DNA of 63,953 bases, the filler included, from Stramenopiles sp. TOSAG23-6 (lineage: Eukaryota), in assembly GCA_900128565.1 (NCBI GenBank). It is 9 parts of 9 records of this genome, joined end to end, with 100 filler letters (N's around TTAATTAATTAA, not from the genome) between each part and the next. Parts side by side here need not be neighbours in the genome. Positions count along the whole stretch, not along the records: positions 1 to 8,742 come from LT636417.1; 8 more parts are not named here. The stretch is one strand, 5' to 3'. This document shows, piece by piece, positions 91-50,700 of the stretch (the stretch's first letter is position 1; every line of letters starts with the position of its first letter). Below the pieces are notes generated by a model, which ran no database searches, was not told the origin of the DNA, and saw only the letters and a list, made by a program, of their open reading frames with translations. A program made the position numbers and the translations under genes.

Positions 91-3000
91 CTATACCTGT
101 AATAGAATTCTTTTCCATTCACTTACGGAAGAATCATCCTCAAAAAGTTTATACCTAAAATTTTCTATTTGCTTTTGAATTTTCCTATTGTACTCAACAC
201 TACTTCCTAAACGTAATGCGATTTCAATATAAGCCTTTTTATCCTTTGCTATACAGCAAGAATCCGTTTCAGTGAGTATTTCCATGAATTTATACATGTA
301 TTTTGGAAAAATATTTGAAAAAAAATTCTAAAAAATTTTGTGAGGTACAAAATTTTTATAAAAAAAAATTCGTTTTTTTTTTTCGGTTTTTTCGGTAAAA
401 AACCGAAAAAAAAAAAAACATAAAACATACATTCATCTAGTCAAAGCTCCAGATAAAGTGGTGCTTTGTAGTGTCACAATAGGTGTCCCTACGGAGAAAC
501 CTTCCAGACTTGTGACGCCTCCTCCGAAAGGAAATGGATCTAACAATGCCACAGAATTGGCCATTAATGTATTTTGGAAAAATATTTTTTTAGTAAAAAA
601 TCTAAAAATATTTGTTAGGTACAAAATTTCGTACGAAAACCAAAAAAAAAAAAAAAATTCAATTTTTTTTTAAGGCTCAAAAATAAAAAAATAAAACATA
701 CATGCTAAATATAACTTTTGTGGGAGGCGAGGCGTTACAATAAGTCTTTGTAGAATTGATTCTTTTTCAAATTCGTTAATTATAACTTTTTCTGTTTTTT
801 TACCNTCTGTAGTAAAAAAAAGAGGAACATTTTTATCANCTTTTTCATCTATTATTTCATTTTGAACAATAAAAAATTCATTCATTTGAAGTTTCCACCT
901 CTTTCGCATTCGAACATGTGCTATGAAAAAATTANTTTTTTTTTTGTTTTATTGTTAGGTACAACATTTCGTATGAAAAAAAAATTATAAAAAAAAATCT
1001 CAAAATAAAAAAAAACGTTAGGTACAACATTTCGTATGAAAAAAAAAATTATAAAAAAAAATCTCAAAATAAAAAAAAAACGTACTTCCCATTTTGGACC
1101 TTCTNGAATAAAAACAATAATTNCGTCTGGATCTAAATAAAGCAAGTTCAGAATGACATAATCAAAAGAAGGGTGTAATTTCATTTGGAAAAATATTTCA
1201 AAAAAAAAAAAAATTTGAAATTGAAAAAAAATAATAAAAATATTTCAAAAAAAAAAATTGTTAGGTACAAAATTTTTATAAAAAACCAAAAAAAAAAAAA
1301 TTGAAATTGAAAAAAAATAATAAAACGTACATTTCATGACACTTTGGGGGCATGAATAAATTTTTGGTGACGTTGTACGTGTGCTAGATAATGGCTTTAT
1401 ACCNATANGTTTTCGCATTTGATTAATAATATGTAAAGAGCTTTCTTGTANATCTTCATTGTTTTTGTCATTAGGGTTAGGGTTATAATTATTATTTTCA
1501 CCTTTACTTTTTGACTCTTTCATCATATATAACCCTAACCCTAGATTATTTGTATGTGAAAATAGTTTTGCCCACTTGGGTCGTTTAAAAAAAAAACTGA
1601 GAGCATTTAGTTCTAGAAGTCTTTCATGGAAGGTATCCGGGTAACGGTAATATATTTGAGCTCTAGATTCTCTACAGGTCAAATTTTCATCTGTTGAAGT
1701 GTTGATGAAATTATTAGTAGTACTAATAAGTTCATTCGCATCAATTTCATTACCATTATCATTATGTTCAAACTTTTGTTCTTTGAAATGAGAAATAGCT
1801 TGCTTCAATGAATCATTGATCATTTCAGTGTTTTTCGTGTTTTTAGGGTTAGGGTTATCACAAATTATTTCATTAGGGTTAGGGTTAGTATCAAACTGAA
1901 GTGGCGGAGATAAAGGAGTAAATGTAAAAAATTTTGATGACACAAAATAGTCAATTGAATCAAGACCTGTCGTGCTAGGGTGACCCCAAGTCATAATTTG
2001 TGAAAAAATATTTCAAAAATTCCATTTGTTTGTTAGGTACAAAATTTCGTACGAAAACAAATTCGATTTTTTTGTAAAAAAAAAATTACAAAAAAAAAAA
2101 AAATTGAAATTCATGATGAAAACATATATAATTTGAACTGGTGCGAGTCTAGAGTATGCAAGCAAATACGTAAACGGATCCATTCCAATACTGAGATATA
2201 CGAGAATATCTAAATTCAAATCTGCAATTTGTTCCCGNGCAAATAGATTTCCAATTGGAAGATCAACAAACTTCAAAGATTTGTTTTCCATTAATTGAAT
2301 TGTTTTTTTGTCGTGTTTTTCTTTAGAAGTCAAAGATAAAATGTAAACATCAAAATTTTCATCACTTGAAATATTGTGTATAATACCACAGAATAGTTTG
2401 CATACAGGATGTGAGTAGAAATATGCCGAAATGAAACCGACACGACGTTTCGTATTTTTTACAATTTTAAAATTTTCTGTATTTTTTGTATTTTTTGTAG
2501 GGTTAGGGTTTACATGTTTCGATGTGTACAAAAGTTCAGGGAAAATACAACTATTTATTAGAGATATAGCCTGAGATACATACTTATCATTATATCCTTG
2601 ATATGTCAAATAGAAAGTAGATGGTAATGATTGAGAGTTGAAAGAGAATTTCTCTACTTTTTTTGAATTTTTAACTTTGGTACAATCTTTAGCCATCTTT
2701 TGAAGAACCTCAGTGAGGTCCAATACTAATTGATTTCTAACTGAGGTGACATGTTTTTCAGAATTATAAAATTGTGGTAGAGAAAGCACCCTTTGAAGTT
2801 TCAATGACATGTTTCCTGGCTGTAGTGTACAAGCTAACTCAAGTTGAGATGTCGCCTCAACGAAGTGACCTGCATGCATTTTGGAAAAATATTTCAAAAA
2901 AAAATTGTTAGGTACAAAATTTCGTACGAAAAAAAAACGAACTTGAAAAAAATAAAACATACATTATACAGTTTTTTGCTTAAGCCGATAATACCTCGGA

Positions 3001-3914: not shown

Positions 3915-6900
3915 TCACCATAATAATCTCTTCAGGAGTATATTTTCATTTAAATATTTCAGAAATGGTGTAACATAAAAATCCGTAATGAAAGGAAATT
4001 GCTTGTTAACATCCACATTTTGTGGTAAGGCGATAATGGCAACTTTGTTATTTTCTAAATATTTCAATTTTGAAATCATGAATTCAAATTCACTAATCAT
4101 AACATCTTCATTCAAAAACAGTGAAACTTTAAATGCCACTCCATCATTCGTCATGAATTGATAACTAGTATCACTTTGTATTCTCTTCAACCCAGATTTG
4201 TCTATCTTTTCATTGCGGGTATTTACTCGTAGTGTTTTTACAATTTTTATGCTTTTTAATTTAGTATATGTCACTTTGACAACAGTTGCAACTGCTACAC
4301 TATTTGATAAATACATTGTTTTTTTGAGAGCATCTGTTTTCCCACTTTGAATAGAATCGATGATATTAAAAGACTGAGCTTTGAACTTTTTCTTCAGGTC
4401 AGTTATCAATTTTTTGTTTGGTGTATCCGCACCAGTATTCTGAACAATCTGTAGAAATCGATGATATGCTGCTTCCTTAGATTTAATTTTGCCTCGATAA
4501 ACTTGAATGCAATCTAAAACAGCTGTTAGATCTCGTAATACAACTTTAAGTTCACCAAGTCTATATTTGCTTTCTCTAATATCGTCACTTATACCACTAA
4601 ACATTTCGCTCACAGCAAAGGGATTCTCGCGTTTTGATTCTTGGAAAACATGTGTAACGTGATCAATAGCTTCTTTTATAGTTGGTAGTTTTTGGAGTCT
4701 TCCTTTTTTAATTGCGTTTTTTGTAACTTCATATAATTCCTTTAGTTTCAGTTGAAGGTTTTCTTCATTAAATGATTCTATATATTCAAAATCATCAAGT
4801 TCACTTAAAACAGTCTTTACGGCCGATTTGCTCTTAGAAGTATCCATTACAGATTCCTCAACAAAAGTCATTGGATTCACATGTGTTGCAGATAAATTAT
4901 AAGGTAATGGTGTATCACAGAATGCACAAATTTGAAATTCAGAAAAATCAAGTTTTCTAACTTCTCCGATTTCTTCAAAATTATTATACAATAAAATAGA
5001 AACAGAGTGATTATTTTCAGGTGATCGCAGTTTTGACTTGCCTGTTGCTTCTCTAATTGCATCCATTCGGAAAAGACTGTTTACTGCGGATCCAAAAATT
5101 GGATATTTTGTACACGTTTGCTTCGAAATTTCCAAAAGTTGTCTCAAGTATATGAAGTGATTCACTTTTATAAGAGTTAAATTTTCTTCAATATTACAAA
5201 AATTCATGTATATATCCAATTTGAGCCAGTGGTTGAGGTTGTGAGGCACTTCATATATATCACTTAAACTATTTTGAATATCTTTATATCTAGTTTTCAT
5301 TTCAGAATTAAAAGGTTTCATCCATGGATACTTTCTAGTACTATATCTTCTATTTGTCAACATTCTATTGAATATTCTTATTATAGTTGATAAATTGTAG
5401 TGTTGGGCTACAGTTAATTCTGTATCTATTACATCCCATTTTTGTGGTTGCAAAACAACGGGTGCGATAAGATGTTGTACAATCATTTCTGCTATTAAGG
5501 ATTGGTAGGATTTATACACATTTGCAGAAAGCTCNCCATGGAGTTTGATTTCCGTTGCATTTTTCAAATGATTCAGGATAATACATGCACCAGGATTAAG
5601 ACCAAAGATTACATTGAGAGTACCCTGTAAAAGAGGTCGAATGAAAGTGATCAGAGTTTTGACATTTCGATTCACCGCAGCGCGTACGTCATGATTTTCA
5701 ATGTAAATCTGCAAACGTTGCTTCGCGTCAACATCAGTGACGATGTTTTCTGCGTTTTCCTCATTTCCATCAAGAATCTGTTGTACAATTGCTGGATCAA
5801 TTGATAGCTTATTCGATTTTATTTTACCAGCAGATTCCGATTTATAATCAAGTAACACATTGATAGGGTCAATTAGATAAGATTTCAAATATCCGATTAT
5901 GTGCGAAGATGTAAAATAATTTCTCATCAAAGGTTCATATACAGTATCCAGACGTGGAATTACTTTATCATTTTTTGAAAATTCATTTGTAATGATTAAA
6001 CACAAAATTTTAAGAAATTTGTGTTCATTCTCGGGAAGTGACAAATCTCCATATACACTCAAAACAAGATTCGAGAATAGTACAGCATCTTGTCCACCTT
6101 TGCCCATTTCTTCTTTGTTTCCTTTACTTTCACTATTATAGATAGAATGATCTAAAAAATTTTCCTTGTGGAGACTATGTATTATGAAAAATTATTTTTT
6201 CAAATTATTTTTTGTTAGGTACATCATTTACTACTAAAAAAGTTTTGGTGAAGCAATTAATTTTGAAAACTTGCGAAAATATTTCAAAAAAAAAACTGTT
6301 AGGTACAAAATTTCGTATGAAAAAAACGTACACTGAAATAACACGGATGCAAACGCAGCAAGGAGAATATTATACAATATTGTGGGAGAAACCCGGTAAT
6401 GTCGTACGGGACTACTCTATAGGAATGCTTTGGTGGTTCAAATTGTTTTTGTAAACTCGATTGTAATATTAAATTAATACTATCTGAAAGCGAGGAAATC
6501 TTATTTTTCACTGCTGAGAAAGAATTTGCAGATTTATGAAGCATGTATTGTGAATATATATATTTCTTAAAAAAACATTTTTTAGGTACAAAATTTGTAA
6601 TGAAAAAAAATGAAGTAAAAAAGTAATCATGAAAACATACATATCTTGTCGTTGTTTCACTTCAGCCAATGCCTTTTCGAGGTCTTTTTTGATAGTTTTT
6701 GATTCGTTTTTTACATCAGATTGACAACGAAAGAGAGATTGTTGCCAACCATCTGCAGCTGCATTCTTCGACTCGAATTCACCCATACTTTCTTCTTCAT
6801 CTGGAAGTGATTGCTCTTTATTGTCTTTTGATGATTTATTATCTTTTGTTGATTTATTGCCTTTTGATAATTTATCCATACGATTGCCAACATTGTCTCT

Positions 6901-8504
6901 TGATGATAAACGACCTGTGTCCTCGACTTTTATCTGCTTCTCATCTTTTGATAAGGTGATTATAATCTGGGCATAGTTGGCATGTTGAGAAAATATACTC
7001 TCTCCATCCTCATTTATACTACGCATTCGTTTATACCCCAATCGTCCTGACGTCCCACACCCCCAAGCATATAAAACACCATTNGCTGAATGTGCAATAG
7101 CATGATTGTTGTAAGCTTTNACAAATCTATTATCTTTTAAGTGATGTTGATTTGGTTTTAAATCCAAATCAGTTAAATATTTATGNTTAATCATTCGCTT
7201 GACAAGATTCGGTTTTTTACTGTCCAAATTATTCGCTAGTAAGCCTTGTCCAAGTTTACCATGTGTGTTGTGACCCCATGACCATACTCGACCTTTGCTA
7301 TCGAAGCAAAGAGAAAAGTCTTCAGCCGCAGAAATTCCATCAATTGATGANCCGATGCCTTTAAAAAATGTATTTAGCTTTGGTAAAGTTTGGTTTCCAA
7401 GTTCTACCATTCCCAATAAACCTTCATTTCTACCCCAACAGAATAAATTACCNACACTTATTGCTAATGTATGATAAGATCCACATGACACATCACTCAC
7501 TTGAGAATACTTCAGTTTGCCTACTGTATTTTAGAAAAATATTTCAAAAAAAAACCCCTAAATTTGTTAGGTACAAACTTTTTATAAAAAAAAAAATTCG
7601 ATTTTTTTGTTAAAAAAAAAATAAAACATACATACTCTTTGAGGTTCGTAGTGATTATATATTGGAAAATATATATCAACTTTGAAATTTGTTAATATAC
7701 TTGATCATTTTTTAATGTACTCTATGAAAAAAAAATGAAATTCATGATGAAAACATACATGTATTGTGAAAAAAAAAACACACTCAAAAAAAATTTGTTA
7801 GGTACAAAATTTCGTATGAAAAATAAAACAAAATTAAATTTGAAATTCATGATGAAAACATACATCTGTGCTCCCTAGACCTAATCTACCGAACCAACCA
7901 CCACCCCATGTATATAAATGAAAATCGGAGGTCAAAGCAGCAGCATGGCACATTCCTAGTGAAACTTTTATGATGGCTTTTGATTTCAAGTTACCTGTAA
8001 CTTGTGCAGGCAAACTTCCTCCTTTTCGTGTAACCTGACCTCTACCTAACTTCCCAAAGTCTGTTGATCCCCAAGTTAATAGTTTATGTATTTTGGAAAA
8101 ATATTTGAAAGAAAAAAAACTTTAATTTGTTAGGTACAAAATTTACTATAAAAAAAAATTCGAATTTGAAAAAACATAAAACGTACACCATCATCTAATA
8201 TTGCAGCAGCATAATTCTCACCCGCGGCTATGGTTTTAACTTTCAAACCTTGTAATGCAATAATGATTTGAGGGATTTCTCTGTTTATTGATGTACCATT
8301 TCCCAGCTGATGTTCGTCTCCTTTTCCCCATGATAAGACTTCATGATTTTCTGTCAATGCTAAAGTGAATTCCGCTCCACATTCTACTTGGGAAATAAAA
8401 ATAGTATTTAATGAATCGATTACCAAAGGTACTCTTTGCATAGATTTACTATCTGTAGTGGCATTATTTAAACCTAATTGCTTATACTCGTTGTCCCCCC
8501 AACC
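3915..8504 (-). CDS. RCC1-repeat + RasGAP (IQGAP/GAP1-like) protein, 5' partial; introns 8086-8186, 7759-7863, 7657-7758, 7524-7631, 6543-6640, 6177-6331
   Basis: RCC1 repeats (VECGAEFTLAL..WGKG..QLG, SCGSYHTLA, WSWGHNTHGKLG) splice in frame to a 730-aa ORF with RasGAP-like segments (LIAPVVLQPQKWDVID, NLSTIIRIF, PWMKPFN). Confidence 0.7.
7759..7863 (-). mobile_element. Introner-like GT-AT intron directly abutting a second family intron (7657-7758)
   Basis: GAT|GTATGT...GTACCTAAC...CACAATACAT|GTATGT...CCAATATAT|AAT. Removing both gives GRLGLGSTD-NHYEPQRV. Confidence 0.8.
8086..8186 (-). mobile_element. Introner-like GT-AT intron
   Basis: GGT|GTACGT...CCAAAATACAT|AAA restores the RCC1 segment AAILDDG-KLLTWG. 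Confidence 0.85.
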
Positions 8505-8742
8505 ATGTTTTGTAGGAAAATATGTTCAAATTTGTTTTTGTTAGGTATACAAATTTCTACGGAAAAAAAAAACTCATGTCAATGTTTTTCTTTAGGTACA
8601 AAATTTTCTATAAAAAAAAAACTACATTTGAAATTCATGATGAAAACGTACATGGCAAAAAAAAAAAAAAAAAAAATCAAAAATTTGTTTAGGTACAAAA
8701 TTTCGTACCTAACAATTTTTTTTAGATTATTTTGAAATATTT

Positions 8743-8842
8743 NNNNNNNNNNNNNNNNNNNNNNNNNNNNNNNNNNNNNNNNNNNNTTAATTAATTAANN
8801 NNNNNNNNNNNNNNNNNNNNNNNNNNNNNNNNNNNNNNNNNN
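8743..8842. other. Artificial contig spacer N44-TTAATTAATTAA-N44 (also at about 17549, 26355, 35160, 43959, 52758, 61556, 62755)
   Basis: Identical six-frame-stop 12-mer inside N runs. Most are spaced about 8.8 kb apart, as expected for length-sorted contigs. Confidence 0.97.
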
Positions 8843-15598: not shown

Positions 15599-17496
15599 AT
15601 GCTTCCCAGCGACGACGTTGGCAAGCTTTCTTTGGTACCCTCAACACGGGTACAAAATGGGAAACAATCAATTGCCACAACTGTTTTAAAAAAGCTACAT
15701 TCTGCACTTGTTTCAGGTCAGTTGAAACTTCATCCACTTGTTTCTCTTGTTTCAAAAAATACTTCACTTTTTTCGGGTGAAGGACTAAGAAACTTAGACT
15801 TGGATCTTGCCCATGTGCTTGAAGCTCGCCTTCATCGATTAGAGTATGTTGAAGCATTGGAGAAATCTAGAAATATAGTTCATTCTCGGTATTCAAAGAA
15901 GGCTGCATTAAATATGAATAAGAGCAACCGTCTGGTCATCGAAGCTATTCTACAAGCTATATTTTCTGCAATGTTAGGAACCGAGTCCAAGAAGAAAGAG
16001 GAGGAGGTAATAGTGCTAGAGCGGCGTCTCCGTGAGTGCCAGAGTGAAAGTAGACGCGTAATATCACATACAGTACAGGCTGAGAAAGATCACAAGAGAC
16101 TCGTTCACTTAATATCAACCGCTACTACCAAAAGACTATCCATGGATGAACTACCAAAGACTAATAGGACTAGTAGTAATAGTAGTAGGAATACTAATGC
16201 AGGAAAAATAGTGGACGATTTTCATAGTTTCAGGGATTTACTTTTACCAATAGTATTAGCACAATTGCATTTTTGTGATAAACAAAGCGGAAATTGTACT
16301 AAAAATGATTACTTGACTCGGAAAAACCAAACAGAACACGAAATGGCAAATGAACGAAATTCTGCCTTTGAAAAATTATCGGCTGCAAAAGCTGAAATCA
16401 TCTCTCTCAAGGAAATGCTGAAAAAGAATAAATCACACATACATTTAAACAAAACAGAGAACCCTAACCCTAACCTTGATGAATCAGATTTTCAATTAAT
16501 ATCAAAGATAATTCATGGAAGCTCCAATAAAGAAAATAAACCTCATGAATCTCATCAATCTGAAATAAACCCTGACCCTAATACATTTGAAATTGAGAGA
16601 TTAACTGTAGAAATCAGTAGATGGAAACAAATGCATGTATGTTTTATTTTATTTTTTTTTTTTAAATCGATTTTTTTTTTCGTACGAAATTTTGTACCTA
16701 ACAATTTTTTTAGAATTTCTTTGAAATATTTTTCCAAAATATATTCTGATGTCATCCTCCAATGTGACAAATATTCGAAAAAATTAGAGGAACGTGAATC
16801 TCAATTTGAAATAGAAAAAAAAGAAAATTACAATAAATATGAATCTGAATTGAAAATGTTGAAAGAAAGATGTTGTAACGATAAAAACTATTCATTACAA
16901 AATTTATCTGCACAGCATCGGCTAGAAATTCAAAAATTGAATGATAACTGTATCGAATGGAAATCAAAATTTGAGCATTTAAAGAATCGTGAAAATGAAT
17001 GTTTTATTTTTTTTTTTACAAAAAAATCGAGTTTTTTTTTTCGTACGAAATTTTGTACCTAACATTTTTTTAATAAATATTTTTTCACAGTACATGAATG
17101 GTCTGCTAATGCGGAACGCGAACAGCGAAATGCCAAGAAGAAATTAGTTTTATCTCACAATGAAGAATTAAAACATGTCACGGAAAACCAAGAGATGAAA
17201 TATAAATCCATCATAGAAGACATCAAATCAAGAAATGTAAAAGATATGTACGTTTTAAAAAAGTGAATTTCAAGTTTTTTTTTCATACGAAATTTCATAC
17301 CTAACAAATATTTTAATTTTTTTGAAATATTTTTCACTCACACATTGAAAAGTTAGAATTGGAGATGGAAGAATGGAAGGCAATGTATGATAAAACTGTT
17401 GATGAACATTCAATTAAAATACGTGAATTGAATAGATCTAATACGGCATTAATTGCTCAAATTAAAGAAGGTCATGAAAAAGGGTTTCATAAGCAT
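15599..17496 (+). CDS. Coiled-coil protein of unknown function, 3' partial; introns 16637-16744, 16997-17095, 17248-17345
   Basis: Long ORF continues in frame across three family introns; E/K-rich heptads. Confidence 0.7.
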
Positions 17497-18074
17497 GTAT
17501 GTTTTATTTTTTTTTCAATTTCCAATTTATTTTTCGTACGAAATTTTGNNNNNNNNNNNNNNNNNNNNNNNNNNNNNNNNNNNNNNNNNNNNTTAATTAA
17601 TTAANNNNNNNNNNNNNNNNNNNNNNNNNNNNNNNNNNNNNNNNNNNNATTGTTTTTGAAATATTTTTCCAAAATACATATTTGATGAGATGCAAGCTGC
17701 AGGTTATCGTCCAGATATTGTTGCGTATACGTCCTTAATGCATGCAATGGCACAAAAGAAAATGGGACGTGCAGCAGAGGCTGTGTTTCAACAAATGTTA
17801 TCATCAGGTATTCGGCCAAATATTATAGCATATTCGTCTTTAGTCAATGCGATGGCTCANNNNNNNNNNNNNNNNNNNNNNNNNNNNNNNNNNNNNNNNN
17901 NNNNNNNNNNNNNNNNNNNNNNNNNNNNNNNNNNNNNNNNNNNNNNNNNNNNNNNNNNNNNNNNNNNNNNNNNNNNNNNNNNNNNNNNNNNNNNNNNNNN
18001 NNNNNNNNNNNNNNNNNNNNNNNNNNNNNNNNNNNNNNNNNNNATTGTTTTTGAAATATTTTTCCAAAATACAT

Positions 18075-24400: not shown

Positions 24401-26299
24401 TTATGAACGAAACACTGGCTGAATCTTGGAAATATTCTGCCGACAAAAAGGACATTTAGGTGTTGTTGTTTCTAATAATTTGTCTCCACACGTCAAACAC
24501 ACAGCAAAATGCATACAATTTAAAATAACAGAGTTAATAGGTTTTTCCATACATATTTTACATATATCATTCGAACTATTTCTATCAGAGGAAATAGGAT
24601 TACCATTATTCAATGAAGTATGCATCATGTATTTTGGAAAAATATTTCAAAACAAAAATCGTTAGGTACAAAATTTCGTACGAAAAAAAATCATACAAAA
24701 AAAAAATAAAACATACATATTAAACTGAGATTTTGAGAGTCCCATAGATTCTAATGCTTTATTATGTTCTACATCTTTAATATTATTTGTTTGTCGGAAT
24801 TTACGTAAAGCATGTATTGTAAAAAAATAGATTTTTTTTTAGTTAAAAAAATACTTGTTAGGTATGAAATTTCGTATGAAAAAAAAAAATTGAAATTCAT
24901 GATGAAAACGTACATCTTCAGCTTGAGGCCCAATAATTCCACTAACTATAATTCCTGCTAAAAAATTCTTATAGTGTGATAATCTACTATCTCTACTACT
25001 TCTTTTCCGTTTTCTACTAGAAATATTAGTACTAGTACTAGCCACTTCATCATTGTGGTGATTACTCATAACAATATTTTCAGAATCATCAAAATTTTGG
25101 TCATCCACATTTGATCTTTTGCATTCCTTTTTATCAGAATCATTAATAATACTATGTAAGACACTTCTTGAACGACTTTTAAGAGTTGTTATTTTTCCAG
25201 ATGAAAATGAGAAACTCTCTCTTGACCTCTTTGATGTCATTGGTGTTAACCCTGCCAGCAAGTTATCNACATTCGCAGTNGCNTTTTTTTCTTTTTGCAA
25301 ATATAAATAACCTTTTTGATCAGCTCCATGTAGTGTGAAAAATATTTTGTTTTTAGTAAAANAAATGAAAAAAAATTGTTCAGGTACAAAATTTCGTATG
25401 AAAAAATTAATAAATTTGAAATTCATAATAAAAACGTACATAAAAACCCCGAATCCTGCAACCAATTCCAGTTTTCATATTTTCTCCTGGATGAATTGAT
25501 TCATCAATGTTAAATACTTGAAACTCAAATGCAGCTGTATATTTTATGACATTATTAAACTTACCTTTGTGTTGCTTCTGTAGCGTCAATATATTTGTGT
25601 CTAGTATGTATTTTGGAAAAAAATTTGAAAAAAAAATTTCAAAAAAAATTGTTAGGTACAAAATTTCATACGAAAAATAAATTCGAAATTGAAAAAAAAT
25701 AAAACATACATGCTTCTACCAATAATATCAAAATCTATTTTTTGACCTCTCCACAATGACACACCCTCGCCAGTCATTGATGATGTACCCGTCATAGGAT
25801 TATCCACTGTAAATCGAAAGGCAATATCATTCCAATTCGTTGCATTTGCTTCCGTTGACCTCAAACTTTGACCAGTCCAAATACCAGAAATACATGTATT
25901 AGAAAACAAATTAAATTCGAAATTTGTTAGGTACAAAATTTCGTACGAAAACCAAAAAAAAAAAATAAATTTGAAATTCATAATCAAAACGTACATTTTG
26001 GGAGTGATTTCAGCGTGGATGCACCGACATACGTGCATGTACTCCGAATACCTCCCGATATAGTGAAAAAATATTTTTTGTTTTTTTATATTGAAAATTT
26101 GTACCTAAGCAAAAAAAAATTAAAAAAAAAAAAATTAAAAAACAAAACATCGTTAGGTACAGAATTTTCTACGAAACAAAAAAAAAAAAAAACTGTAAAA
26201 ACATACAAGTATATCATTAACAGTCGCATCAACTGGACCTCGATACGGAACTCTGACAGTTTTCCCTTCACTGGAACGATAATTTTTGACACCTCCGCT
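24401..26299 (-). CDS. Multi-exon protein with C-terminal RING finger, 5' partial; at least 6 family introns
   Basis: [30 protein letters not shown]. Exons are separated by introns at about 24627-24716, 24812-24913, 25328-25439, 25606-25709, 25895-25994 and 26059-26206. Confidence 0.8.
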
Positions 26300-26590
26300 A
26301 TGTATTTTGGAAAAATATTTGAAAAAAAAAACTAAAATTTGTTAGGTACAAAATNNNNNNNNNNNNNNNNNNNNNNNNNNNNNNNNNNNNNNNNNNNNTT
26401 AATTAATTAANNNNNNNNNNNNNNNNNNNNNNNNNNNNNNNNNNNNNNNNNNNNACCAAGATTTCGTGTCAAACTTTCAATTTATTCGTCGTTAAACAAA
26501 TGTCGCCCACAATGTCATGATAATTTAGATTTGATTGTATTTCTGAATAAATACACTAATTATAGAAGAATGATTAATGGATAACGTGTT

Positions 26591-28115: not shown

Positions 28116-29762
28116 TTATTCATAAACATTTTTACCGTACAGAGATTTCAAATTATCCTGCCATTGTCGCACAATTCTGTCAACATCTGCGGGAGTTTCT
28201 ATATTTTCGAAATCAAGTATATATTTATTTTCACTCGCGTTCCTATTAGGCACAGATTTTGGTACATTTGAAATATTATCAAATCGATCCTCTTTAGTAT
28301 CTTCCTTTTCAATTTTACTTATATTATTTGCATACAAAATATCATCTTCTTTTGCATATGTTTCTACTATTGGAGAGACTTGTGCTGAATTTCGCGTTTT
28401 TAAGTTTTCAATAACACTTAATAAATGTCTTAATTCTTCTCCATGTACTTTGGAAAAATATTTCAAAAAAAATTCATTAGGTACACAATTTCGTATGAAA
28501 AAAAAACTTAAATTAGAAATTCATATAAAACATACATGAGTTTTATGTAGCTGTACAATCTTGTTTTGATATATTTTTTTCATTTTTTTCAATTCTGAAG
28601 GTCTATTCCGTTTTATCGATTTTTTCGATGAACATAATTTTGTTCGTGATAATACTCTTGGTTTTGGAGATTTCTGTTGTAATTTATACTTATGCTCTTG
28701 AACCGTAAATGAAGTAGTACTAGGGTTAGGGTTATTAAAACTATCTTGCGACTGAATGCTAGAAGAAATGCTCTGACTAAAAGATGAATTACATTTTCGT
28801 GATGAATTTAGAGAAAGTGAATCCATATATGGTGATTGTGTTCGATTGTCATTCAACGCGACGACATTAACAACCGAAAGACGTGAAGAAGAATTTCGAC
28901 TTTGTTCGTTACAACAATTAGGGTTAGGGTTGCTTATGTACTTATTCTTAAACGCAACAGCGACCATAGTATGACCTATCCACTTCCGCATACACCGGCC
29001 TAATATCTGCATTCTATACCTTGATAAATAATATCTAATTCTCTCGGTTGCACGAAATATTAACAACTTCTGTCGCACTGAAGTTGGGCTTGTTACTACG
29101 ATATTGGCCCAAATTCGAAAACTTTTTTTTTGCATTTCAAATTTCCATTTTCTCGAATATTGTTTTACAGTGCTACGCATTATGTATCTACGAGTATCCC
29201 GCATCGCTGCACTACTTAGTTGAATCTGCTCTAGCAACCACTTTCGCATCTTTGCGTGACGCTTTTGCATTTTCCGACCCTTGATTTTATCTGCCTTATT
29301 GACTGAATCAACCATCGCAACTTCACGAACGGCTCGTTTTTGTTTTTTAATTAGATCACTCGCTGTGTGGAGTGCATATTGTTCGTTTAATGCGCATTTT
29401 AAAGCGGTTTTGTGTATACTTGTAATAGACTTACGCACACGATTTGACGAAGAAGTTAGGTCCTGGAAATGCGAACTATTCTCACTTGACTCAAATTTTT
29501 GCGAACTTTTTAAGGCAGGCATCATAGTAGAGTCAACACTTTTGTCAGTCTGAATATACTCGGCATCATCACCATCTTCCATTATATGTGAAGCATCGCT
29601 ACAGCTCATATCATTGTCTGCGTTACCAGGCCACGAAAACGAGGACCATGATGGAGAGTTAAGAAGTTCTGGGAAAGTTTTTACTTCATTTTCTTCTGAA
29701 ATAGGGGACCCTTTGAGAATTTCCACGTGGTTGTAGTTTTCTTTTGTACTTATTTCACTCAT
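28116..29762 (-). CDS. Hypothetical protein; intron 28443-28535
   Basis: A 413-aa and a 116-aa ORF are joined in frame by CAT|GTATGT...AAGTACAT|GGA. Confidence 0.7.
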
Positions 29763-31271: not shown

Positions 31272-34200
31272 TCATACATTGGCTGGACAAGGATTTTGAT
31301 GTCTCCACTCTAAATAATCAATAATAACAAAATAACTAAAAACAAAGCCAATGTTAACACAAATATGCCACCATTGATGACTGTGAAAGAAAATATCTAA
31401 CTTTCCTTCCCCAAAAATGACTTCAGGTATACTAGCAGATTTTATTACAAGACCCAGTGTGATAAATCCCATTGATAATAACCAATATTTGACATAAGAC
31501 CAAGGCCCTCCACGTGCTATTGAATCTTCGTAGAGTTTTTCATATATAAAGAAAATCATTGGCATACAGTTAGCAAAAACGACAAAAAGGAAAAATGCAA
31601 ATGTCCTAACGGAACTTTGTGCCACAAAAACAACTGATAGAATCGTTGATAGAAACAAGCCAATTGCAGAGACATAAAAAAATAATTGTTTTTCCCAATC
31701 ACAATAAAATGTAAATCTTCCTAAAGGGATTGACGTATTGTGAAAAATATTTTTTTTTTAGTCAAAAAACAAAATAATTAGGTACAAATTTTTCTATGAA
31801 AAAAAATGAAGGTTAAAAATCGATTTTGATAATGTACATGCACATAAAACAGCAAGGCAAATAGAAGAGTAATCTACACCCCACCAAAATACAAAAGAAC
31901 GCTTGGATACATTATTAAACAAATGCGCTAATCCTGAACAAAATGGTCTAATCACCAATGAACCTACAATAGTCATAATTGCAATGGTACGATCTGTATG
32001 ATTAGCAGTATGTATTGTGAAAAATATTTGTTTTTTTGGTTGAAAAAAAAAATTGTTAGGTACAAAACTTTTTATGGAAAAAAAATTAATTTCGTATATA
32101 TGGAAAAAAATTTAAATTTGTATCAAAACAATATAAATTTGAAATTCATGATGAAAACAAACTTTATACACTGAATTATGACTGACAACAAATATAGAGC
32201 ATATAATGAAAAGAATAAGAGGTATAAATTCTGTCCAAACATTAATGAGCTCATTATGAATAAAAAAGAGTGATCGTAGACATAATTTGTAACTAAAACC
32301 ATATATTGTGAAAATATATATATATCTTTTTTTTTGCATTTGTTAGGTACAAAATTTAAAAATAATGTAGCGAAAAAAATCGATTTGAAAACGTACCGGT
32401 TTTCTGTATCCACTGACTACATATGGATATGGTGCATACCAATTTGGTAATTCATCTCTTGTACACAACTCAAACTTTTCAGAAAGAGTAATATTACTAT
32501 TGGTGTACTCTTCTCCTGAAATATTATGTATTTTTGGGAAAATATTGTTTTTAGTAAAAATATAGTTTTTTTGTTAGGTTTACATTTTGGTATACAACAA
32601 AAATGAAATTGAATAAGTGAAAACGAACAACAGTGTCCATAAATTCTTCAGGTGCATACAGTTCTTTATCCGTTAGAAATTCAATTAGAGTTGTAGCACC
32701 AGAATGTTCCAAAGTTTCGAATCCTTCATTAGAACATCCTATATTTTCAGAAATATTTAAATCTTTCAAAACATCGCGTAATTTGAGCAAACCTCGCGAT
32801 GATGGTCTTGCTAAATGTGTATTTAGGAAATTCAGTAAAGCGGCTGGTACACTTTTTACTTTATTTTTAATCGACTTATTCGTTTTTTTATTTTCTAAAT
32901 TATTGTTTTTATTGTTTATGTGATCATTTTGTAATAATGGGATTCTAAAGGTATTACTATCACCAGTTGTAGTATCAGTACTGATAGATATACTATCTTC
33001 CATTATATTAGGGTTAGGGCTATGCATATCTCCTTTGATTGTATTGCTCATTTTTGCATCATTTGTATGATTGATAGATTCTTTACTCTCATCTAAATAA
33101 TCATGGATAAAATTATCCATGATATTTTGTTTGCTGAAAAGATCTCTGGGGCATGATGAAGTAGACATTGGAGAATATTGAGACGAATTTGGATTGTTTA
33201 CTTCAAGATAGAGACGTAAATATTCTCGATTTTCACAAATCGATAAAAATTTCAGACGATCTTGTTTCTCTGTTCTATGACTCACTTTTAAGCAAATAAA
33301 TGTAATAAAAATAAGTGTGAAATTATACGCTATATGTATTGTGAAAAAATATTCTTTTCTTTTTACTAAAAAAACATTTGTTAGGTACGAAATTTCGTAT
33401 GAAAGCAAATTTAGTAAAAAAATGTAATTTTGAAAACGTATATACAAATCGTGATCGTTATCCTTCCAAGAATCATGTTCTATCAGGACTACTGTAGTTT
33501 TTAAAAATTATGTCAAATTCAATTTTTTGTCATACTCGGTACAAAAATTTTTGAAAGAAAAAAAAAAAGTATAGTTGAAACATTTTTGATATTTTTGATC
33601 AAAACAAAAAAAAATTCTTAGGTACGAAATTTCTTAGAAAAAAAAAACATACAAGCATTCCACAAAATGAGTTGGACAAAAGTAACAAAAAAAGCACAGA
33701 CAAACCGTAAACGCACAAGAATAGACCATGATATCATATCAAGCATCATTGCAAGCATAATAAATGGTGATAGTTTAGCGTCCAAGAAATATGCTTCGAG
33801 GACGAGCTCTGCTCCAGTGAGAATAGCAAGAGTCATTACATAAATATGTGTATACTTCTCAAAGCAGCTGCCAAAAGAAAGAAAAAAGAGACCAAGCAAA
33901 ACAGCAAAGTATGTAAGCCGTACAGCTAACGGTGTCTGATATGGTGAGGAATTTTGCATGTGGAGCTCTTCAGAAGTATGTAAACCATATGCAAGCCAAA
34001 ACATCATATCTAAAAATAACAAACCTAAAACAACCAAGCGAAGACTGACGCCTCGCACATTAGTGAAGTAACAAGCGTAAGCTTTTTCTAACTTATCGTT
34101 TCGGAAACGTAAACTGTATCGAAGTATTTCTTGGTATTGAACGCCCATATCACACAAACCATTCCAAGTTTCACCAGTTGCTTCTGCGACATCTGCAGCG

Positions 34201-35100: not shown

Positions 35101-35259
35101 GTATGTTTTATTTTTTTTCAAATTCGATTTTTTTTTCGTACGAAATTTTGTACCTAACGNNNNNNNNNNNNNNNNNNNNNNNNNNNNNNNNNNNNNNNNN
35201 NNNTTAATTAATTAANNNNNNNNNNNNNNNNNNNNNNNNNNNNNNNNNNNNNNNNNNNN

Positions 35260-44224: not shown

Positions 44225-46129
44225 ATAATATTTAAAAAATTTGGATTTTCAACAGTCGCTGTTGTTGCTGAATTTGAAGCACTTGCGGAAACCACGGGAA
44301 TATTCCCAGCATCTACAGAAACACCATCACCACTGACAGGCATTGGTGTTACAAGAACACTTGAACTCTCCCCACCAACAAGCTTTTGCTTCTTTGCTGC
44401 AGGTGGATTTGTGTCTCCATCAGCTGTGGCGGTTCCTGCGTGTATGACACCATTTGTCTGCTGCTGTTGCTGCATCGATGCCATTTGTTGTTGGATTTGT
44501 AAGAACATATTCATTTGGTTTTGTTGTTGTAATTCACGNATCTGATCCAGTAACGCTGCGGCTTGTGCGGAATCCATATTGTCTGGAATATTCATTGAAT
44601 TTGGCATAACTGGCATAAGGGATCCAAGCATCGGATTCATGAGACTTCCCATCATTAATCCTGTATTATTTATATCAAGTAAACCTGGCATTGCACTAAA
44701 ATTTCCCATCGCGTCTATCTCACCTTGTGCTTTTTTTGTGCGTCTTTTTTTACTCTTAGATTCTTTTTTTTTGGATCGTTTTTTCGGAGATTTTTGAGTT
44801 TTGGTTTTTGGTTTTGGTGATTTTTTAGTCTTTGCTTTCTTCACTTTTTTTGTACTTGATAAAAGTTGTACATGTTTTAATAAGTCAATCGATATTTCTT
44901 CACCTAACATTTCAGGCAAACCTAATTCTACGGGATTGGCGTTTCCTATTTTCCGTCCTTCGGCAGAGTCTCCATTCAATTTTCGTTGCGCGGCGTTTTC
45001 TTTTAATCCTTGTAACTGCTGATGAATCATAGCAGCGACTTCTTCTTGACCATCAACACCTGACTTTGCTTCATTCTTTGCCATTTTTTTATATCTTCTT
45101 TGAATACGACGAATAGTTGAATAATACCGATTTTTAATGGCATGTATTTTGGAAAAATATTTCAAAAAAAANTCTAAAAAATTTGTTAGGTACAAATTTT
45201 CGTACGAAAAATAAATTCGATTTTTTTTTTTTTACCGAAAAAAAAATAATAAAACGTACATTGTCGGTGCGACCAGGTAAAAACTTGGCGATTTCAGCCC
45301 ATTGGTTTCCTAGCCGTTTGTGATACTCAAAGATTAAATAATCCTCATCTTTTGACCAGGAGCCTTTTCGAACCTGTGGGGAAAGATGATTATGCCAACG
45401 TTCTCTACATTGTTTACCAACGCGACCAGGTAGTTGCTGAGCAATAAGAGACCATCTCTTTGGGCCATACACTCGAACTAATTCAATAAGCTTCGCATTT
45501 TCCTGTGCTGTAAAAATATATTTTAGCGAGTCAATCATTTTAGTATTTCATTGTAGTGTTTCATTGCAGATGGTCTAGTATATAATCTTTTAAGAAAAAC
45601 AAATAGAAAAAGAGTCTCGGAAACTCAGAAGGAAGGAAAGAAAGAACATTTGTCCTGTTGAATTGAAGGGANTTTTTTTTCTTGTGTGGTACTTTGTACT
45701 CATNAGAACAGTACAGTACACACAACAGATGTACACAATAATGATAAATGTGCTATGGAATATATCACATATACACATGAAAACGGAAGAGAAAAGAANA
45801 AACAAAGACACTCGCCGTCGGTAGGGGGAAAAAGTATGGAGGAGGAGCATGAGAGAAAAAAAAATGTTCACCCGAGGAGAAGAAGCGAAACTCTTTNTAC
45901 GAAATAATCTTACAATATGATATATTACATAATGAAAACGTACATCTGCAGACCAAAATCGTTTCGACATTGCTGTATCATCATTCTTTTGTATATCGGT
46001 AGATAACAGAGCTGCCTGAGCTGAAGCTGGAACACGATTCAAGTCTGTGTCTTCATCTTCTCTTGAATCAGCTACTAATGGTACTAATGTAACAGACGAC
46101 GGCGTGGCCAAATCGGCCTTGGCCGCCAT
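44225..46129 (-). CDS. Myb-domain transcription factor, 3' partial; introns 45503-45943 (GT-AG) and 45142-45259 (GT-AT)
   Basis: [68 protein letters not shown]. Confidence 0.93.
45142..45259 (-). mobile_element. Introner-like GT-AT intron
   Basis: AAT|GTACGT...CCAAAATACAT|GCC restores the highly conserved Myb motif GRTDN-AIKN. No AG lies near the 3' end. Confidence 0.9.
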
Positions 46130-47705: not shown

Positions 47706-50700
47706 TCATACTTTCATACTACTTGGTAAGAACATTCCAATATATTCTTGATTATATTCATCTTCAAAATTTTCTTGTTTATGACTTTGACCCTTCAAAA
47801 GTCCAAAATTAGCAGTTGCTCTGGTTAGTGCCCATTTATTAACATTTTCAGTAACATGCTTAGCTAATCCATTTTGGTCTTCAACAACATCAGAGTTGGT
47901 TATCGGATCGACATTTTGTAATCTTCGAGATTCGCCACACGATTTGGCAACAACAGCAATGTATTTTGGAAAAATATTTCAAAAAAAAACTAAAATTTTT
48001 TTGTTAGGTACAAAATTTTTATAAAAAAAAAAATCGATTTTTTTGTTTAAAAAAAAATAAAACATACATGTTACCAAACACTCTTCTATGTTGCTTTTTA
48101 TTAATTTCTTTCTTTAAAAAAGCATTTATATCCTGCATTGTACAGTAAATATTTGGAGTTTGGTTTATGTAGATTTGTTAATGAAACAATTTGTTTGTAT
48201 AGCTACTAATTACTCACTCACTTACTAGAGATATAAGAATCTTGGACTCGGAGTAGATTAAAAAATTCAAAAAAAAAACTTGAAATTAAAATTAAAATTA
48301 AAATTAAAATCAAAATTAACAACGTGATCCAAACATACATTTAGTGCCTCTGCTGCTTTACTTTCCCTGATATATAAATATTTACAATTTTTAGAAAACT
48401 TTTTTGCAAATTGATGTGTGATTTTAATCATTGCTGCTTCATTATTACTAAATAAATGTTTGTGTCGCTTCAATTTTTCAATAATAAATTTTATATCTTT
48501 TCGAAATCGTTCGAGTTCCTGACTTTCTTGTTGATTGGCTTTTTGTAGTCGTTGGCGTTGTACATTTTGATGATCTTCATCATCGTCATCATTAGAAGAA
48601 GAATCAAATTCTTGTTTAAACTCATCTAAAATNACTTTTCCGATTGCTTTATCTCGATTTCTTAAATGTCGTTTGGCAATTTCTAATTTACGATCAATTT
48701 TTTTAGCTCTCACCTCTGTACTCATGGACCAAAAGACTGTCCTTCTATGTTTCTTATGCCCTAACCCTAATGTCTTTTCCACTCTATTTGTATCACTACT
48801 TTCTAAAATATCATCTCCAATCCGANCACACCATTTTCTATTTTTCATTGCTGCATCTTCTGCATCTATTTTAGCTTGTAAAGCAGCTAATCNTGTCTTT
48901 TCTTGATCATTCCATCCTGAAAGTGTTTCTGCAATGGCTGCTGTATCATCGTCCATCAATGTTGAAATAGANCCTAAAGGTATTTAGTGTACAACAAATA
49001 TTCATTTTAATTTTTGTTAGGTATGAAATTTCATAGAAAAAACAATTTCAAAAATATGATCAAAAATTCATATTGAATCAAAACATACACNACTTTTGTA
49101 TTTTTGTTTTTTTTGTTTTTTTTGTTTTTTTTATTCACTTTTTTTAGTTTTTTTAGCTTATTCTTTTTACTCCCTGGCACCCATTCATCATCATCAATAC
49201 TTTGAGAACTTTCTTCATCACCTGTATTAGACTTACCAGCAGCATCGGTAAAAAATAATACATAATATTCATACACAGATTTAGATGTTGCCAACCATAA
49301 CAAAATGGATAAGGGCAAAATTGTTGAAAGAAGTGTCACATGTACTATTTCACAATAGGTAAAATTTTTGTTTTCGTTAGGTACGAAATTTTCATATTAA
49401 AATAAAGATTAACAATTAGGGTTAGGGTCACAAAATAATTTTAAATATTAGAAAAAAAACAGTTTGAATCAAAATTCAAAAAAATTAAAAAATTCATGAT
49501 ACCCAAAAATATTAGGGTTTAGGGTTGATACAAATCTCAAAGATATCAATCGTAAAACGTACAGCAGGCCATGAAATATTTGGATTATTTTCTGAACTGA
49601 CAAAAATTGATAAAATGCAAGTTAATAGTAAAATACTACGAATAATAAACGAGGTCTGATTCATACTAAAGTCTCGATATTTTGGTCGAAAAAACTGAGC
49701 AACAATCAATATTATGGAGAAAAAACAACACACAATCGAAAATATTGGAACTAATTCTGATTGCGCCAATGCAGCTCTTGCCACTGACATGAAACAGATA
49801 CACACTGCTGTGATAGTATTTGTCTGTAAAACAAATTTAGGGTTCGGATTCGGAGCACATGGACCAAGTTCAACTGGATGTTGATGAATACGTGCTTTCC
49901 AACGGCCAAGGAAATGTTGACGAAGGCGATCTTGCACATTCATTTTAGATGCACCGCGTAGTAGATATGAAGTATGTCCATCGACAGCATACAACCGCAC
50001 AGCATATGCCATATACGGTATTATTAAACACGATGTAATAAAGACGCGTAGCATGTGTAAACCTGTAAAACATGTCACTTCAGGAACGGGAAGCCATCGT
50101 AATACTGTAAGAATTGAACCATAATATGGATCACCTACTCGGCATACACTAGATATAAATACTGTAGGAATATCAACGACACAGTCTAATTTACGATACG
50201 ATGATACACGAGTCTTTACGACTTTCAGCTGAATGACACCATCACCAAGGACAGGCCGTTCAGCATATTCTGAAGTAGTAACACTTTTAACTCCAAATTT
50301 TGTTCGTTGTAGTATTTGATCGCATCGGGGTTCATAATATACATTGTTTGATTTTGTATCTTCACACTCTGCACGACTACTTACAGGAAGTTCTTCTTCC
50401 TGGTATTTACAATATTTTCCATTAGTACTACCAACATCTTCACATGCTNCTTTACGACCGTTTCCATTAGGCAACGTCTTGAGACTTGGGCATAACACTG
50501 CAGAGTTACNATTTTCGTGTTTTTGAATACAATCTTCAAACACTAGATAATTATAATTTTGCATNGATATGTCTTTTTCTATGTATGTGCACAAGCCAGC
50601 AGTAATACANAAACTACGATTTTGTGCAACTGTGTTTTCATCTTTAAATTTTGTTTTTGCTTCTTTGCAAATATCATAGCAAGCTTCTGCTTTACAGTCA

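What the first reader, a model, noticed from the sequence alone, without database searches (positions are those of the whole stretch)
7657..7863. Two family introns back to back with a zero-length exon (AATACAT|GTATGT)
Seen: on the minus strand GAT|GTATGT..(105 nt)..CACAATACAT is followed immediately by GTATGT..(102 nt)..CCAATATAT|AAT. Removing both gives a clean RCC1 segment. Inference: a new copy inserted exactly at the AT|GT donor of an older copy, duplicating the AT. This creates a recursive splice site analogous to AG|GT ratchet points and supports mobility with an AT|G target.
Basis: partly seen in the sequence, partly recalled or inferred. Interest (0 to 1): 0.75.

Follow-up and report, generated by a model that had tools for sequence, protein, structure and literature searches.

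The report
Two repeat-family introns joined end to end
Two copies of a short, mobile-looking intron family sit directly end to end inside an RCC1-repeat gene of a marine protist, and both are absent from the mature transcript, so the junction has the layout of a recursive splice site although stepwise splicing was not shown.

Summary
On the minus strand, 7759-7863 (A, 105 nt) and 7657-7758 (B, 102 nt) abut as ...CACAATACAT|GTATGT....

- **The two copies:** A is a typical member of a roughly 100-nt intron family with 57 profile hits in 64 kb. B is a degenerate member.
- **Family borders:** members start GTAYGT and end YAT, not YAG. 34 of 38 3' ends are AT, and 29 of 34 5' ends follow AT.
- **Removal from the transcript:** an RNA contig (X8) and a contig of run X4 join 7523 to 7864 with exactly 25 letters between, the length of micro-exon 7632-7656. 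Four homologous proteins align without a gap across STD|NHY.
- **Lineage-specific gain:** four related metagenome loci have no intron at this site and no family copy.
- **Origin:** A and B are no more alike (68%) than unrelated copies. This favours two separate insertions at one AT site over a recent duplication.
- **A second case:** another head-to-tail pair, with its inner junction deleted, lies at 6177-6331.
- **Chance:** under an AT|G target preference about 0.7 such pairs are expected per window, so no special mechanism is needed.

Stepwise (recursive) splicing and the DNA-level junction remain untested.

The parts
7759..7863 (-). Intron A: a typical family copy running GTATGT...TGTACCTAACAAA...CACAATACAT, 105 nt.
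   Evidence: One search gives the sequence. One search gives a family-profile hit over positions 1-97, 42.1 bits, E 2.6e-12. One search shows it absent from the joined contigs.
7657..7758 (-). Intron B: a degenerate family copy, 102 nt. Its first 23 nt are identical to A's. It has a branch-like TATTAAC about 34 nt before its end, and it ends in TATAT.
   Evidence: best match 71%, to copy 24812-24913; profile score only 4.3 bits over 7758-7722. One search shows it absent from the joined contigs.
7753..7764 (-). Inner junction ...TACAT|GTATGT...: the 3' end of A directly against the 5' splice site of B, a zero-length exon.
   Evidence: the only exact TACATGTATGT in the window. Use of this site in RNA was not tested.
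7864..8085 (-). Upstream exon of 222 nt (74 codons) encoding RCC1 repeats and ending ...GLGSTD.
   Evidence: 52-55% identity to RCC1/RasGAP-type proteins of about 1750 aa; covered by X4 record 1 and X6 record 11.
7632..7656 (-). 25-nt micro-exon (NHYEPQRV plus 1 nt) lying between the pair and the next family intron.
   Evidence: exactly 25 unaligned letters between the flanking pieces in X8 record 17 and in X4 record 1.
7524..7631 (-). Intron C: a family copy of 108 nt, and the only one of 38 scored 3' ends that ends in CAG (GT-AG).
   Evidence: (43.1 bits). One search shows it absent from the joined contigs.
8086..8186 (-). Family intron of 101 nt preceded by GGT, not AT. This fixes its borders as GT...AT (or TG...CA if shifted by one base).
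   Evidence: AAAILDDG|KLLTWG aligns without a gap to AAAILSSGALYMWG of P0002. X4 record 1 stops at 8085 and X6 record 15 starts at 8187.
6177..6331 (-). A second head-to-tail pair fused into one 155-nt intron. The first copy is 6271-6331 and lacks its last 5-7 nt. The second is 6177-6270 and lacks its first 4 nt.
   Evidence: One search gives the sequence. One search gives two profile hits on the same strand (positions 32-91 at 32.6 bits, and 34-97 at 16.0 bits); the second half matches copies 33334-33441 and 54667-54757 from their position 5, with GTTTTCAAAATT identical.

Best explanation
The 207 nt are two abutting spliceosomal introns derived from one lineage-specific, introner-like repeat family. 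Family members begin GTAYGT, carry a conserved branch-site block (TGTACCTAAC) about 35-45 nt before their end, and end in YAT instead of YAG.

The pair most likely arose from two separate insertions at the same AT site of the codon pair GAT|AAT. The second copy landed in the AT that flanks, or ends, the first. This is expected because each copy's own borders (AT|GTA... and ...CAT|G) recreate the family's preferred AT|G site.

Both units are removed from the transcript, leaving D|N joined. Each unit keeps a complete set of signals: a 5' site, a branch-like motif at the family distance, and a YAT end. I therefore infer two splicing reactions, in either order. If A goes first, the exon is joined to B's GTATGT and a 5' site is regenerated, exactly as at a recursive 'ratchet' site.

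**Shown:** the sequence layout, family membership of A, absence of the 207 nt from the mature form, and absence of the introns in relatives.

**Inferred:** separate insertions, which copy is older, and two-step removal.
For: - **Layout and coordinates:**
- **The family is real.** The core motif has 51 matches against 3.34 expected. There are 57 profile hits in the window.
- **Borders.** 31 of 34 5' ends start GT and 34 of 38 3' ends are AT. Position -3 is C in 32 and T in 5, as in YAG.
- **Reading frames.** Removing GT..AT keeps the frame open in 18 of 22 single copies tested.
- **Intron 8086-8186 fixes GT..AT without an AT flank**.
- **The mature form lacks A+B and C.** X8 record 17 (RNA) and X4 record 1 each have exactly 25 letters between 7523 and 7864.
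- **Gapless alignment** of four homologues across STD|N.
- **Lineage-specific gain.** 4 of 4 related loci examined (L001-L004) are uninterrupted at the D|N site, and there is no family hit in any of the 6 loci fetched.
- **Separate insertions.** A-B identity is 68%, against 79% for A's best match and 71% for B's best match to other copies.
- **Recurrence.** The fused pair at 6177-6331 is built from two different subfamilies.
- **B's 5' end is kept.** Its first 36 nt stay close to the subfamily form, while its core has decayed. This fits continued use of B's own 5' site.
Against: - No intermediate (A removed only, or B removed only) was seen or could be seen. All four runs laid are contigs.
- The fused pair at 6177-6331 shows that inner sites are dispensable, so one-step removal of 207 nt is possible.
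- B is not a significant profile hit (4.3 bits, E 1.5). It could be an older unrelated intron whose 5' end resembles the family.
- No independent read bridges 7758|7759.
- Run X4, which holds the longest intron-less contig, is labelled 'DNA?' (library not on record), so part of the 'RNA' evidence is of uncertain kind.
- The 25 letters between the aligned pieces were not displayed.
- The homologues may be paralogues, at 51-55% identity.
Confidence: 0.6

Rival explanations
1. One-step removal. The 207 nt behave as a single long intron that uses A's 5' site with B's branch site and 3' end. The inner ACAT|GTATGT is a silent relic.
For: The fused pair at 6177-6331 has lost its inner junction and still sits in an open reading frame. 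Other composite family introns of 147-153 nt exist. Only the fully joined form was seen.
Against: A keeps an intact consensus branch block and 3' end. B keeps a perfect 23-nt 5' end although its middle has decayed. A's own 3' site lies at the normal family distance from A's branch block, and so should compete.
Confidence: 0.3
2. Ancient tandem duplication of one intron, by slippage or unequal exchange on the AT or ATGTAT microhomology, followed by decay of one copy.
For: Internal tandem duplications are frequent in these introns. There is a near-identical 63-nt repeat in the intron at about 900-1090 and repeated blocks at about 1195-1330. The intron at 8505-8651 has a duplicated core. A and B also share the same 5' subfamily sequence.
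Against: A-B identity (68%) does not exceed that between unrelated copies. A retains consensus features that B lacks. The shared 5' block is invariant in all 6 copies of that subfamily in the window. The second pair at 6177-6331 joins two different subfamilies.
Confidence: 0.12
3. Assembly artefact: two alleles or amplification chimeras mis-joined, with only one unit really present.
For: The assembly breaks inside family copies. N44-TTAATTAATTAA-N44 linkers lie at 8743-8842, 17549-17648, 26355-26454 and 35160-35259. No independent contig bridging 7758|7759 was listed.
Against: A false tandem needs a read joining A's 3' end to a 5' end. Only 2 nt (AT) overlap between ...ATACAT and ATGTATG..., too little for an assembler to join on. 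B's middle is unique in the window. Removing exactly A+B restores the protein. A second pair in the same gene shows the layout recurs.
Confidence: 0.05
4. Removal at the DNA level, or an intron-less DNA version. On this reading the joined form is not produced by splicing of this locus.
For: Run X4, guessed to be DNA, holds only intron-less contigs over this gene: record 1 across four introns, and record 7 stopping at 8506. The ends ATGTAT...ATACAT form a short inverted repeat flanked by AT.
Against: The tool only guessed X4's kind. The same joined form is in X8, which is on record as RNA. The copies have a canonical GTAYGT 5' site and a branch-site block. They lie in the sense orientation, with open frames restored in 18 of 22. 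X4 record 1 has 3 other letters in the 559 it aligns, while family copies differ from one another by 20-30%, so simultaneous absence of four old introns in DNA is unlikely.
Confidence: 0.03

Closest known systems
Introners: intron-generating transposable elements of Micromonas, Aureococcus, dinoflagellates and others (PMC9860276 and PMC12130899, passages read)
   Same: Many similar short introns at unrelated positions and in sense orientation. They are lineage-specific gains, with short terminal inverted repeats and a short flanking direct repeat. One splice site may be supplied by the target.
   Different: The 3' end here is YAT, not AG. The curation text of PMC12130899 lists only AG and AC as accepted 3' ends. 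The direct repeat is only 2 nt (AT) and is absent at some copies. In the passages I searched, the words 'tandem' and 'nested' occur 0 times in PMC12130899 and 'tandem' 0 times in PMC9860276. I did not see the supplements.
Amoebophrya introner elements with non-canonical borders (PMC7789003, passages read)
   Same: A marine protist. Repeated introns with 8-20 nt inverted repeats and 3-5 nt direct repeats that overlap the exon-intron borders, and splice sites other than GT-AG.
   Different: In Amoebophrya no consistent terminal dinucleotides or family-specific repeats were found. Here the borders are uniform (GT..AT) and there is a canonical 5' site and branch block. GC content also differs: about 54-58% quoted there for some genes, against about 32% here.
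Recursive splice sites / ratchet points of long animal introns (PMC5126111 and PMC2773006, search listing only; the AG|GT detail is recalled)
   Same: A 3' splice site directly juxtaposed to a 5' splice site, a zero-length exon. Splicing to the site regenerates a 5' site.
   Different: Those sites lie in very long introns and read AG|GT. Here the whole structure is 207 nt, reads AT|GT, and was built from two mobile-type introns. Stepwise use is not shown here.
Stwintrons, the spliceosomal twin introns of fungi (PMC7138796, passages read; PMC12403724, PMC9024468 and PMC8469720, abstract starts only)
   Same: Complex intervening sequences removed by consecutive U2-type reactions. Some stwintron families have propagated within genomes.
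   Different: In a stwintron the internal intron interrupts a splice element of the external one, so the two are nested. Here the two units are serial, and each has its own intact signals.
[quoted passage not shown]
   Same: GT...AT terminal dinucleotides are tolerated by a spliceosome.
   Different: The 5' site here is GTAYGT, not RTATCCTT. The branch block lies 35-45 nt from the 3' end, not 9-12 nt. GT-AT is the majority form here, not a rare one.

Membership tests
Introner-like intron family | Many similar introns at unrelated gene positions | tested here: met
   57 profile hits in 63,953 bases. The core motif has 51 matches against 3.34 expected.
Introner-like intron family | Copies are removed from RNA as introns | tested here: met
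   Joined contigs lack 7524-7631, 7657-7863 and 8086-8186 (X8 record 17, X6 record 15, X4 record 1). The frame is restored in 18 of 22 copies. Only this one gene was checked with RNA.
Introner-like intron family | Recent, lineage-specific gain (absent at the same position in relatives) | tested here: met
   L001-L004 are uninterrupted at the D|N and DG|K sites. There are no family hits in L001-L006. The relatives are distant, at 51-55% amino-acid identity.
DNA-transposon (MITE) type element | Terminal inverted repeats and a target-site duplication of fixed length | tested here: inconclusive
   The ends ATGTAT/ATACAT pair over 6 nt and a little further with a bulge. An AT flank is present at 29 of 34 5' ends but absent at 8086-8186, where GGT is ancestral. 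A proto-splice-site preference (AT|G mirroring the intron end AT) explains the flanks equally well.
DNA-transposon (MITE) type element | A cognate autonomous element or transposase in the genome | not testable with these tools
   No genome is held for this window.
Recursive splice site (zero-length exon) | 3' splice site immediately followed by a 5' splice site | tested here: met
   ...CACAATACAT|GTATGTTTT at 7759|7758. Both halves match the family's end and start consensus.
Recursive splice site (zero-length exon) | Stepwise splicing intermediates or separate lariats | not testable with these tools
   All runs laid are assembled contigs, which drop rare forms.
Stwintron | An internal intron interrupts the donor, branch or acceptor element of the external intron | tested here: not met
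   A and B are serial. Each has its own GTATGT, branch-like motif and YAT end.
U12-type (minor) intron | 5' site RTATCCTT and a branch site close to the 3' end | tested here: not met
   The 5' ends are GTATGT or GTACGT in 27 of 34. The CCTAAC block lies about 35-45 nt from the end. The consensus figures come from the passages of 10.1101/2020.10.12.336362.
Known Rfam RNA family | A match at the gathering score | tested here: not met
   0 matches in the whole window.

The most novel reading that the evidence does not exclude
The pair is a working recursive splice site built by stacking two introners. It sits in an organism whose dominant introner family is spliced GT...AT by a U2-type machinery. 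Because each copy's borders recreate the AT|G site the family prefers, copies can chain end to end and later fuse, as at 6177-6331. That would make stacking a route by which introner-rich genomes grow longer, composite introns. If so, this locus is a natural test case both for non-AG 3' site recognition and for zero-length-exon splicing in a protist.
Probability: 0.3. Interest if true: 0.7.

Novelty: new variant of a known kind. Interest (0 to 1): 0.5.

Why it matters
Introners are the best-supported source of episodic intron gain. How they interact with one another once they are dense is barely described.

- **What the locus shows.** A new copy can land exactly on the border of an older one and the gene still yields a correct message. 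A sister locus shows that such pairs can collapse into one longer intron.
- **Hidden families.** The family's uniform GT...AT borders mean that standard GT-AG gene finders, and introner surveys based on annotated introns, would miss it. Intron counts in such uncultured marine protists may be underestimated.
- **Limits.** The pair itself is roughly what the target preference predicts, so it adds no new evidence for mobility. Its recursive use is still a hypothesis.

Tried and rejected
- **AT-AC reading of the family** (shifting the borders 2 nt left). Rejected as the general rule. Intron 8086-8186 has no AT flank and homologues fix GT..AT. The base that varies at the 3' end is position -3 (C 32, T 5), as in YAG. 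One copy (52443-52553, which starts ATATGT after AC) is in frame only if it ends 2 nt earlier at AC, or 1 nt later. This is unexplained and has no RNA check.
- **U12-type introns.** The motifs do not fit (see the membership test).
- **RNA structure bringing the ends together.** Folds of A, B, C, 8086-8188 and the whole pair give z-scores of +0.40, -0.76, -1.58, +1.82 and -0.41 against shuffles. None is significant.
- **Rfam.** 0 hits.
- **Other intact pairs.** The two near-matches I read (293-303, 25888-25898) are a copy's 3' end followed by coding exon. At 296 the intron seems to split a start codon AT|G. I did not classify the other 8 near-matches.
- **Whole-genome count of junctions.** No genome is held.
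- **Protein atlas for taxon context.** Uninformative.
- **Near-identical spliced proteins in the protein database.** None longer than 130 aa for this exon; the best was 55%.
- **Read laying.**
  - Parts without cover, and the very high summed depth over family-like bins (for example 95,366 in X4), come from cross-mapped family contigs. They say nothing about this locus.
  - Depth over the B-specific bin 7655-7706 was 15.5 in X4, 0 in X6, 0.17 in X8 and 0 in X9. I could not interpret it.
- **Literature searches.**
  - 'GT-AT introns': 0 papers.
  - 'introner' with 'GT-AT': 0 papers.
  - 'MAST-3' with 'introns' and 'splice': 2 papers, both irrelevant.
  - PMC5778133 passages say nothing on intron borders.
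  - Supplements were not opened, and those of the introner surveys could list relevant families.

Full report
**What is there.**

Read on the minus strand, 7400-8200 is part of an RCC1-repeat gene. After the exon ending ...GGGAGCACAGAT come two units:
- A: 105 nt, GTATGTTTTCATCATGAATTTCAAA...TGTACCTAACAAA...CACAATACAT (7863 down to 7759).
- B: with no base between, 102 nt, GTATGTTTTCATCATGAATTTCATTT...GTATATTAACAAA...TTCCAATATAT (7758 down to 7657).

The exon then resumes with AATCACTAC.

The window is AT-rich (GC about 0.23-0.38) and eukaryotic. No genome is held for it. A poly(A) polymerase ORF elsewhere in the window is 93% identical to a protein whose source name begins GSMAST32. That name, and the seawater runs that hold the stretch, suggest an uncultured marine stramenopile. 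I did not pursue provenance.

**The family.**

The core TGTACCTAACAAA occurs 51 times with up to 2 mismatches, against 3.34 expected (maximum 8 in 100 shuffles). I built a profile from 22 copies: 23 regex hits, of which one with an N was dropped and one row was cut 46 nt too long. The profile finds 57 hits at E up to 0.01 in the 63,953 bases.

Tally of the ends:

| Feature | Count |
|---|---|
| 5' ends starting GT | 31 of 34 (AT 2, GA 1) |
| 5' ends preceded by AT | 29 of 34 (background AT dinucleotide 0.103) |
| 3' ends that are AT | 34 of 38 (AG 1, GT 1) |
| Position -3 | C 32, T 5 |
| Base after the intron | G 18 of 38 (background 0.163), A 9, T 9, C 2 |

Two of the 3' exceptions (at 32532 and 33572) are my projection slipping over indels.

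Removing GT...AT keeps a reading frame open across the junction in 18 of 22 single copies. The four exceptions are:
- 296-430, where the intron seems to split a start codon.
- 1992-2127, where I set the 3' end 1 nt too far.
- 8505-8651, whose true donor seems to lie elsewhere (X4 record 7).
- 52443-52553, discussed under the rejected readings.

**Are the borders really GT...AT?**

Where AT precedes the intron, the borders could be slid 2 nt to give AT...AC. Intron 8086-8186 settles this, because it follows GGT. With GT...AT the protein reads AAAILDDG|KLLTWG. This aligns without a gap to AAAILSSGALYMWG (P0002) and SAAVLQDGQLFTWG (P0005). The AT-AC alternative would delete two residues, including the conserved DG.

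In the laid runs, X4 record 1 stops at 8085 and X6 record 15 (RNA) starts at 8187 with 37 further letters to its left.

The pattern of variation (Y at -3, A at -2, and T or once G at -1) is that of a YAG site with T in place of G. [quoted passage not shown] However, the 5' site here (GTAYGT) and the branch block 35-45 nt from the end are U2-like.

**The pair is absent from the mature form.**

In one search, table 8:
- X8 record 17, from a run on record as RNA, aligns 7412-7523 to its letters 1-112 and 7864-7917 to letters 138-191.
- X4 record 1 aligns 7187-7523 to letters 578-914 and 7864-8085 to letters 940-1161.

In both, exactly 25 letters lie between the pieces. That is the length of the micro-exon 7632-7656, which sits between the pair and the next family intron C (7524-7631, the only GT-AG copy). 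I could not see those 25 letters.

The predicted protein WGGGWFGRLGLGSTD|NHYEPQRVLGKL... matches P0002-P0005 without a gap across the junction.

X4 is labelled 'DNA?' with no library on record. All of its contigs over this gene are intron-less, so it is most simply cDNA, but I cannot prove that.

**The introns are gains of this lineage.**

Six related metagenome loci were found using the upstream exon as query. In L001-L004 (51-55% identity) the DNA runs straight through both the DG|K site and the D|N site. In L001-L003 it also runs through the site of intron C. L005 and L006 (35-37% identity) were not inspected at these sites. L002 and L003 read GAT|AAT at the pair's position, a single AT. 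The family profile finds nothing in any of the six loci.

**How the pair arose.**

A and B are 68% identical (76 of 111 aligned columns). A's best match elsewhere is 79% (copy 28443-28535) and B's is 71% (copy 24812-24913). They are therefore not recent duplicates of each other.

The shared 23-nt start is not evidence of duplication. The block GTTTTCATCATGAATTTCA is invariant in all six copies of that subfamily in the window.

B is much decayed. Only its first 37 nt score against the profile (4.3 bits, E 1.5). In the control that kept B's first 23 nt and shuffled the rest, 6 of 200 shuffles scored as well. B still has a TATTAAC about 34 nt from its end, and a family-like tail.

The simplest history is two insertions at one AT. 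The order cannot be decided from this locus.

A second pair supports recurrence. Intron 6177-6331 contains two same-strand profile hits. Its second half matches other copies from their position 5 onward, and its first half stops 5-7 nt short of a normal end. This is a head-to-tail pair of two different subfamilies that has lost about 9-11 nt at the inner junction and now forms one 155-nt intron.

**Is it more than chance?**

This is my own arithmetic. It uses about 1250 ATG sites per strand, about 38 copies, and 1.3 AT|G-type ends per copy.

| Insertion model | End-to-end pairs expected per window |
|---|---|
| AT\|G sites only | about 0.7 |
| Any AT | about 0.2 |
| Any position | about 0.02 |

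One intact and one fused pair were observed. The pair is therefore far above uniform expectation, but is what the family's site preference predicts. It needs no special mechanism and adds little independent evidence for mobility.

**Transposon or reverse splicing?**

The ends ATGTAT...ATACAT and the flanking AT look like a short inverted repeat plus a 2-bp duplication. However, intron 8086-8186 sits at GGT|AAA, where relatives also have a glycine codon, so no AT was available there. The pattern exon-AT|GT...AT|G also mirrors the ordinary AG|GT...AG|G. A proto-splice-site preference therefore explains the flanks as well as a duplication does. This is unresolved.

**How it is spliced.**

Each unit has a full set of signals. 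B's 5' end is intact while its middle has decayed, which suggests B's 5' site is still used. I therefore favour two reactions in either order. If A goes first, the step is formally recursive.

The fused sister pair shows that inner sites can be lost. Contigs cannot reveal intermediates. One-step removal therefore stays a strong rival.

Folding gives no significant structure.

**Comparison with the literature.**

The closest known systems are these:
- Introners (PMC9860276 and PMC12130899, passages read).
- Amoebophrya introner elements with inverted and direct repeats and non-canonical borders (PMC7789003, passages read).
- Recursive ratchet points (search listing only, plus recall).
- Stwintrons (PMC7138796, passages read). 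Stwintrons are nested, not serial.

My searches found no paper with 'GT-AT introns', none combining 'introner' with 'GT-AT', and nothing relevant on MAST-3 introns. Supplements were not opened.

**Verdict.**

- The pair is a real and tidy, but statistically expected, by-product of a more remarkable GT...AT introner-like family.

Noticed in passing
whole window, e.g. 8086-8186, 16637-16744, 45142-45259: The intron family as a whole ends in YAT rather than YAG (34 of 38 scored 3' ends). It is dense, at about one copy per 1.1 kb. GT-AG gene finders would miss these introns.
   Followed up: partly
52443-52553 (minus): This copy starts ATATGT after AC. It restores the reading frame only if it ends 2 nt earlier at ...ATAC (an AT-AC intron) or 1 nt later. 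It may be a natural example of first and last bases changing together. No RNA check was made.
   Followed up: no
6177-6331 (minus): A second head-to-tail pair of family copies in the same gene. The inner junction is deleted, so the two are fused into one 155-nt intron.
   Followed up: yes
about 900-1090 and 1195-1330 (minus): Recent internal tandem duplications inside family introns. One is a near-identical 63-nt unit that includes the branch block; the other is a set of repeated 5' and 3' blocks.
   Followed up: partly
296-430 (minus): A family intron appears to split a start codon as AT|G. All three frames are closed just upstream, and an ORF (MYKFMEIL...) opens across the junction.
   Followed up: partly
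8743-8842, 17549-17648, 26355-26454, 35160-35259 and others: Assembly gaps written as N44-TTAATTAATTAA-N44 fall inside family copies, so the repeat family breaks the assembly. The window has 965 Ns in 94 runs.
   Followed up: partly
7187-8742 in run X4: A run guessed to be DNA holds only intron-less contigs of this gene. It is either mislabelled cDNA or an intron-less DNA form.
   Followed up: partly
7499-7602, 7759-7862, 8071-8226 (table 2): Summed depth of family-like contigs is thousands of times the exon depth in both metagenome and metatranscriptome runs. Family-like sequences are therefore very abundant in these seawater samples. Which organisms or RNA species they come from is unknown.
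   Followed up: no
near 28914-28935 and 49407-49425 (minus): The telomere-like word CCCTAACCCTAATTGT occurs twice, next to weak family-core matches. It may be the end of another repeat.
   Followed up: no
8675-8732 and 26100-26179: Partial family cores in inverted orientation lie next to each other, inside or beside introns at gene borders.
   Followed up: no
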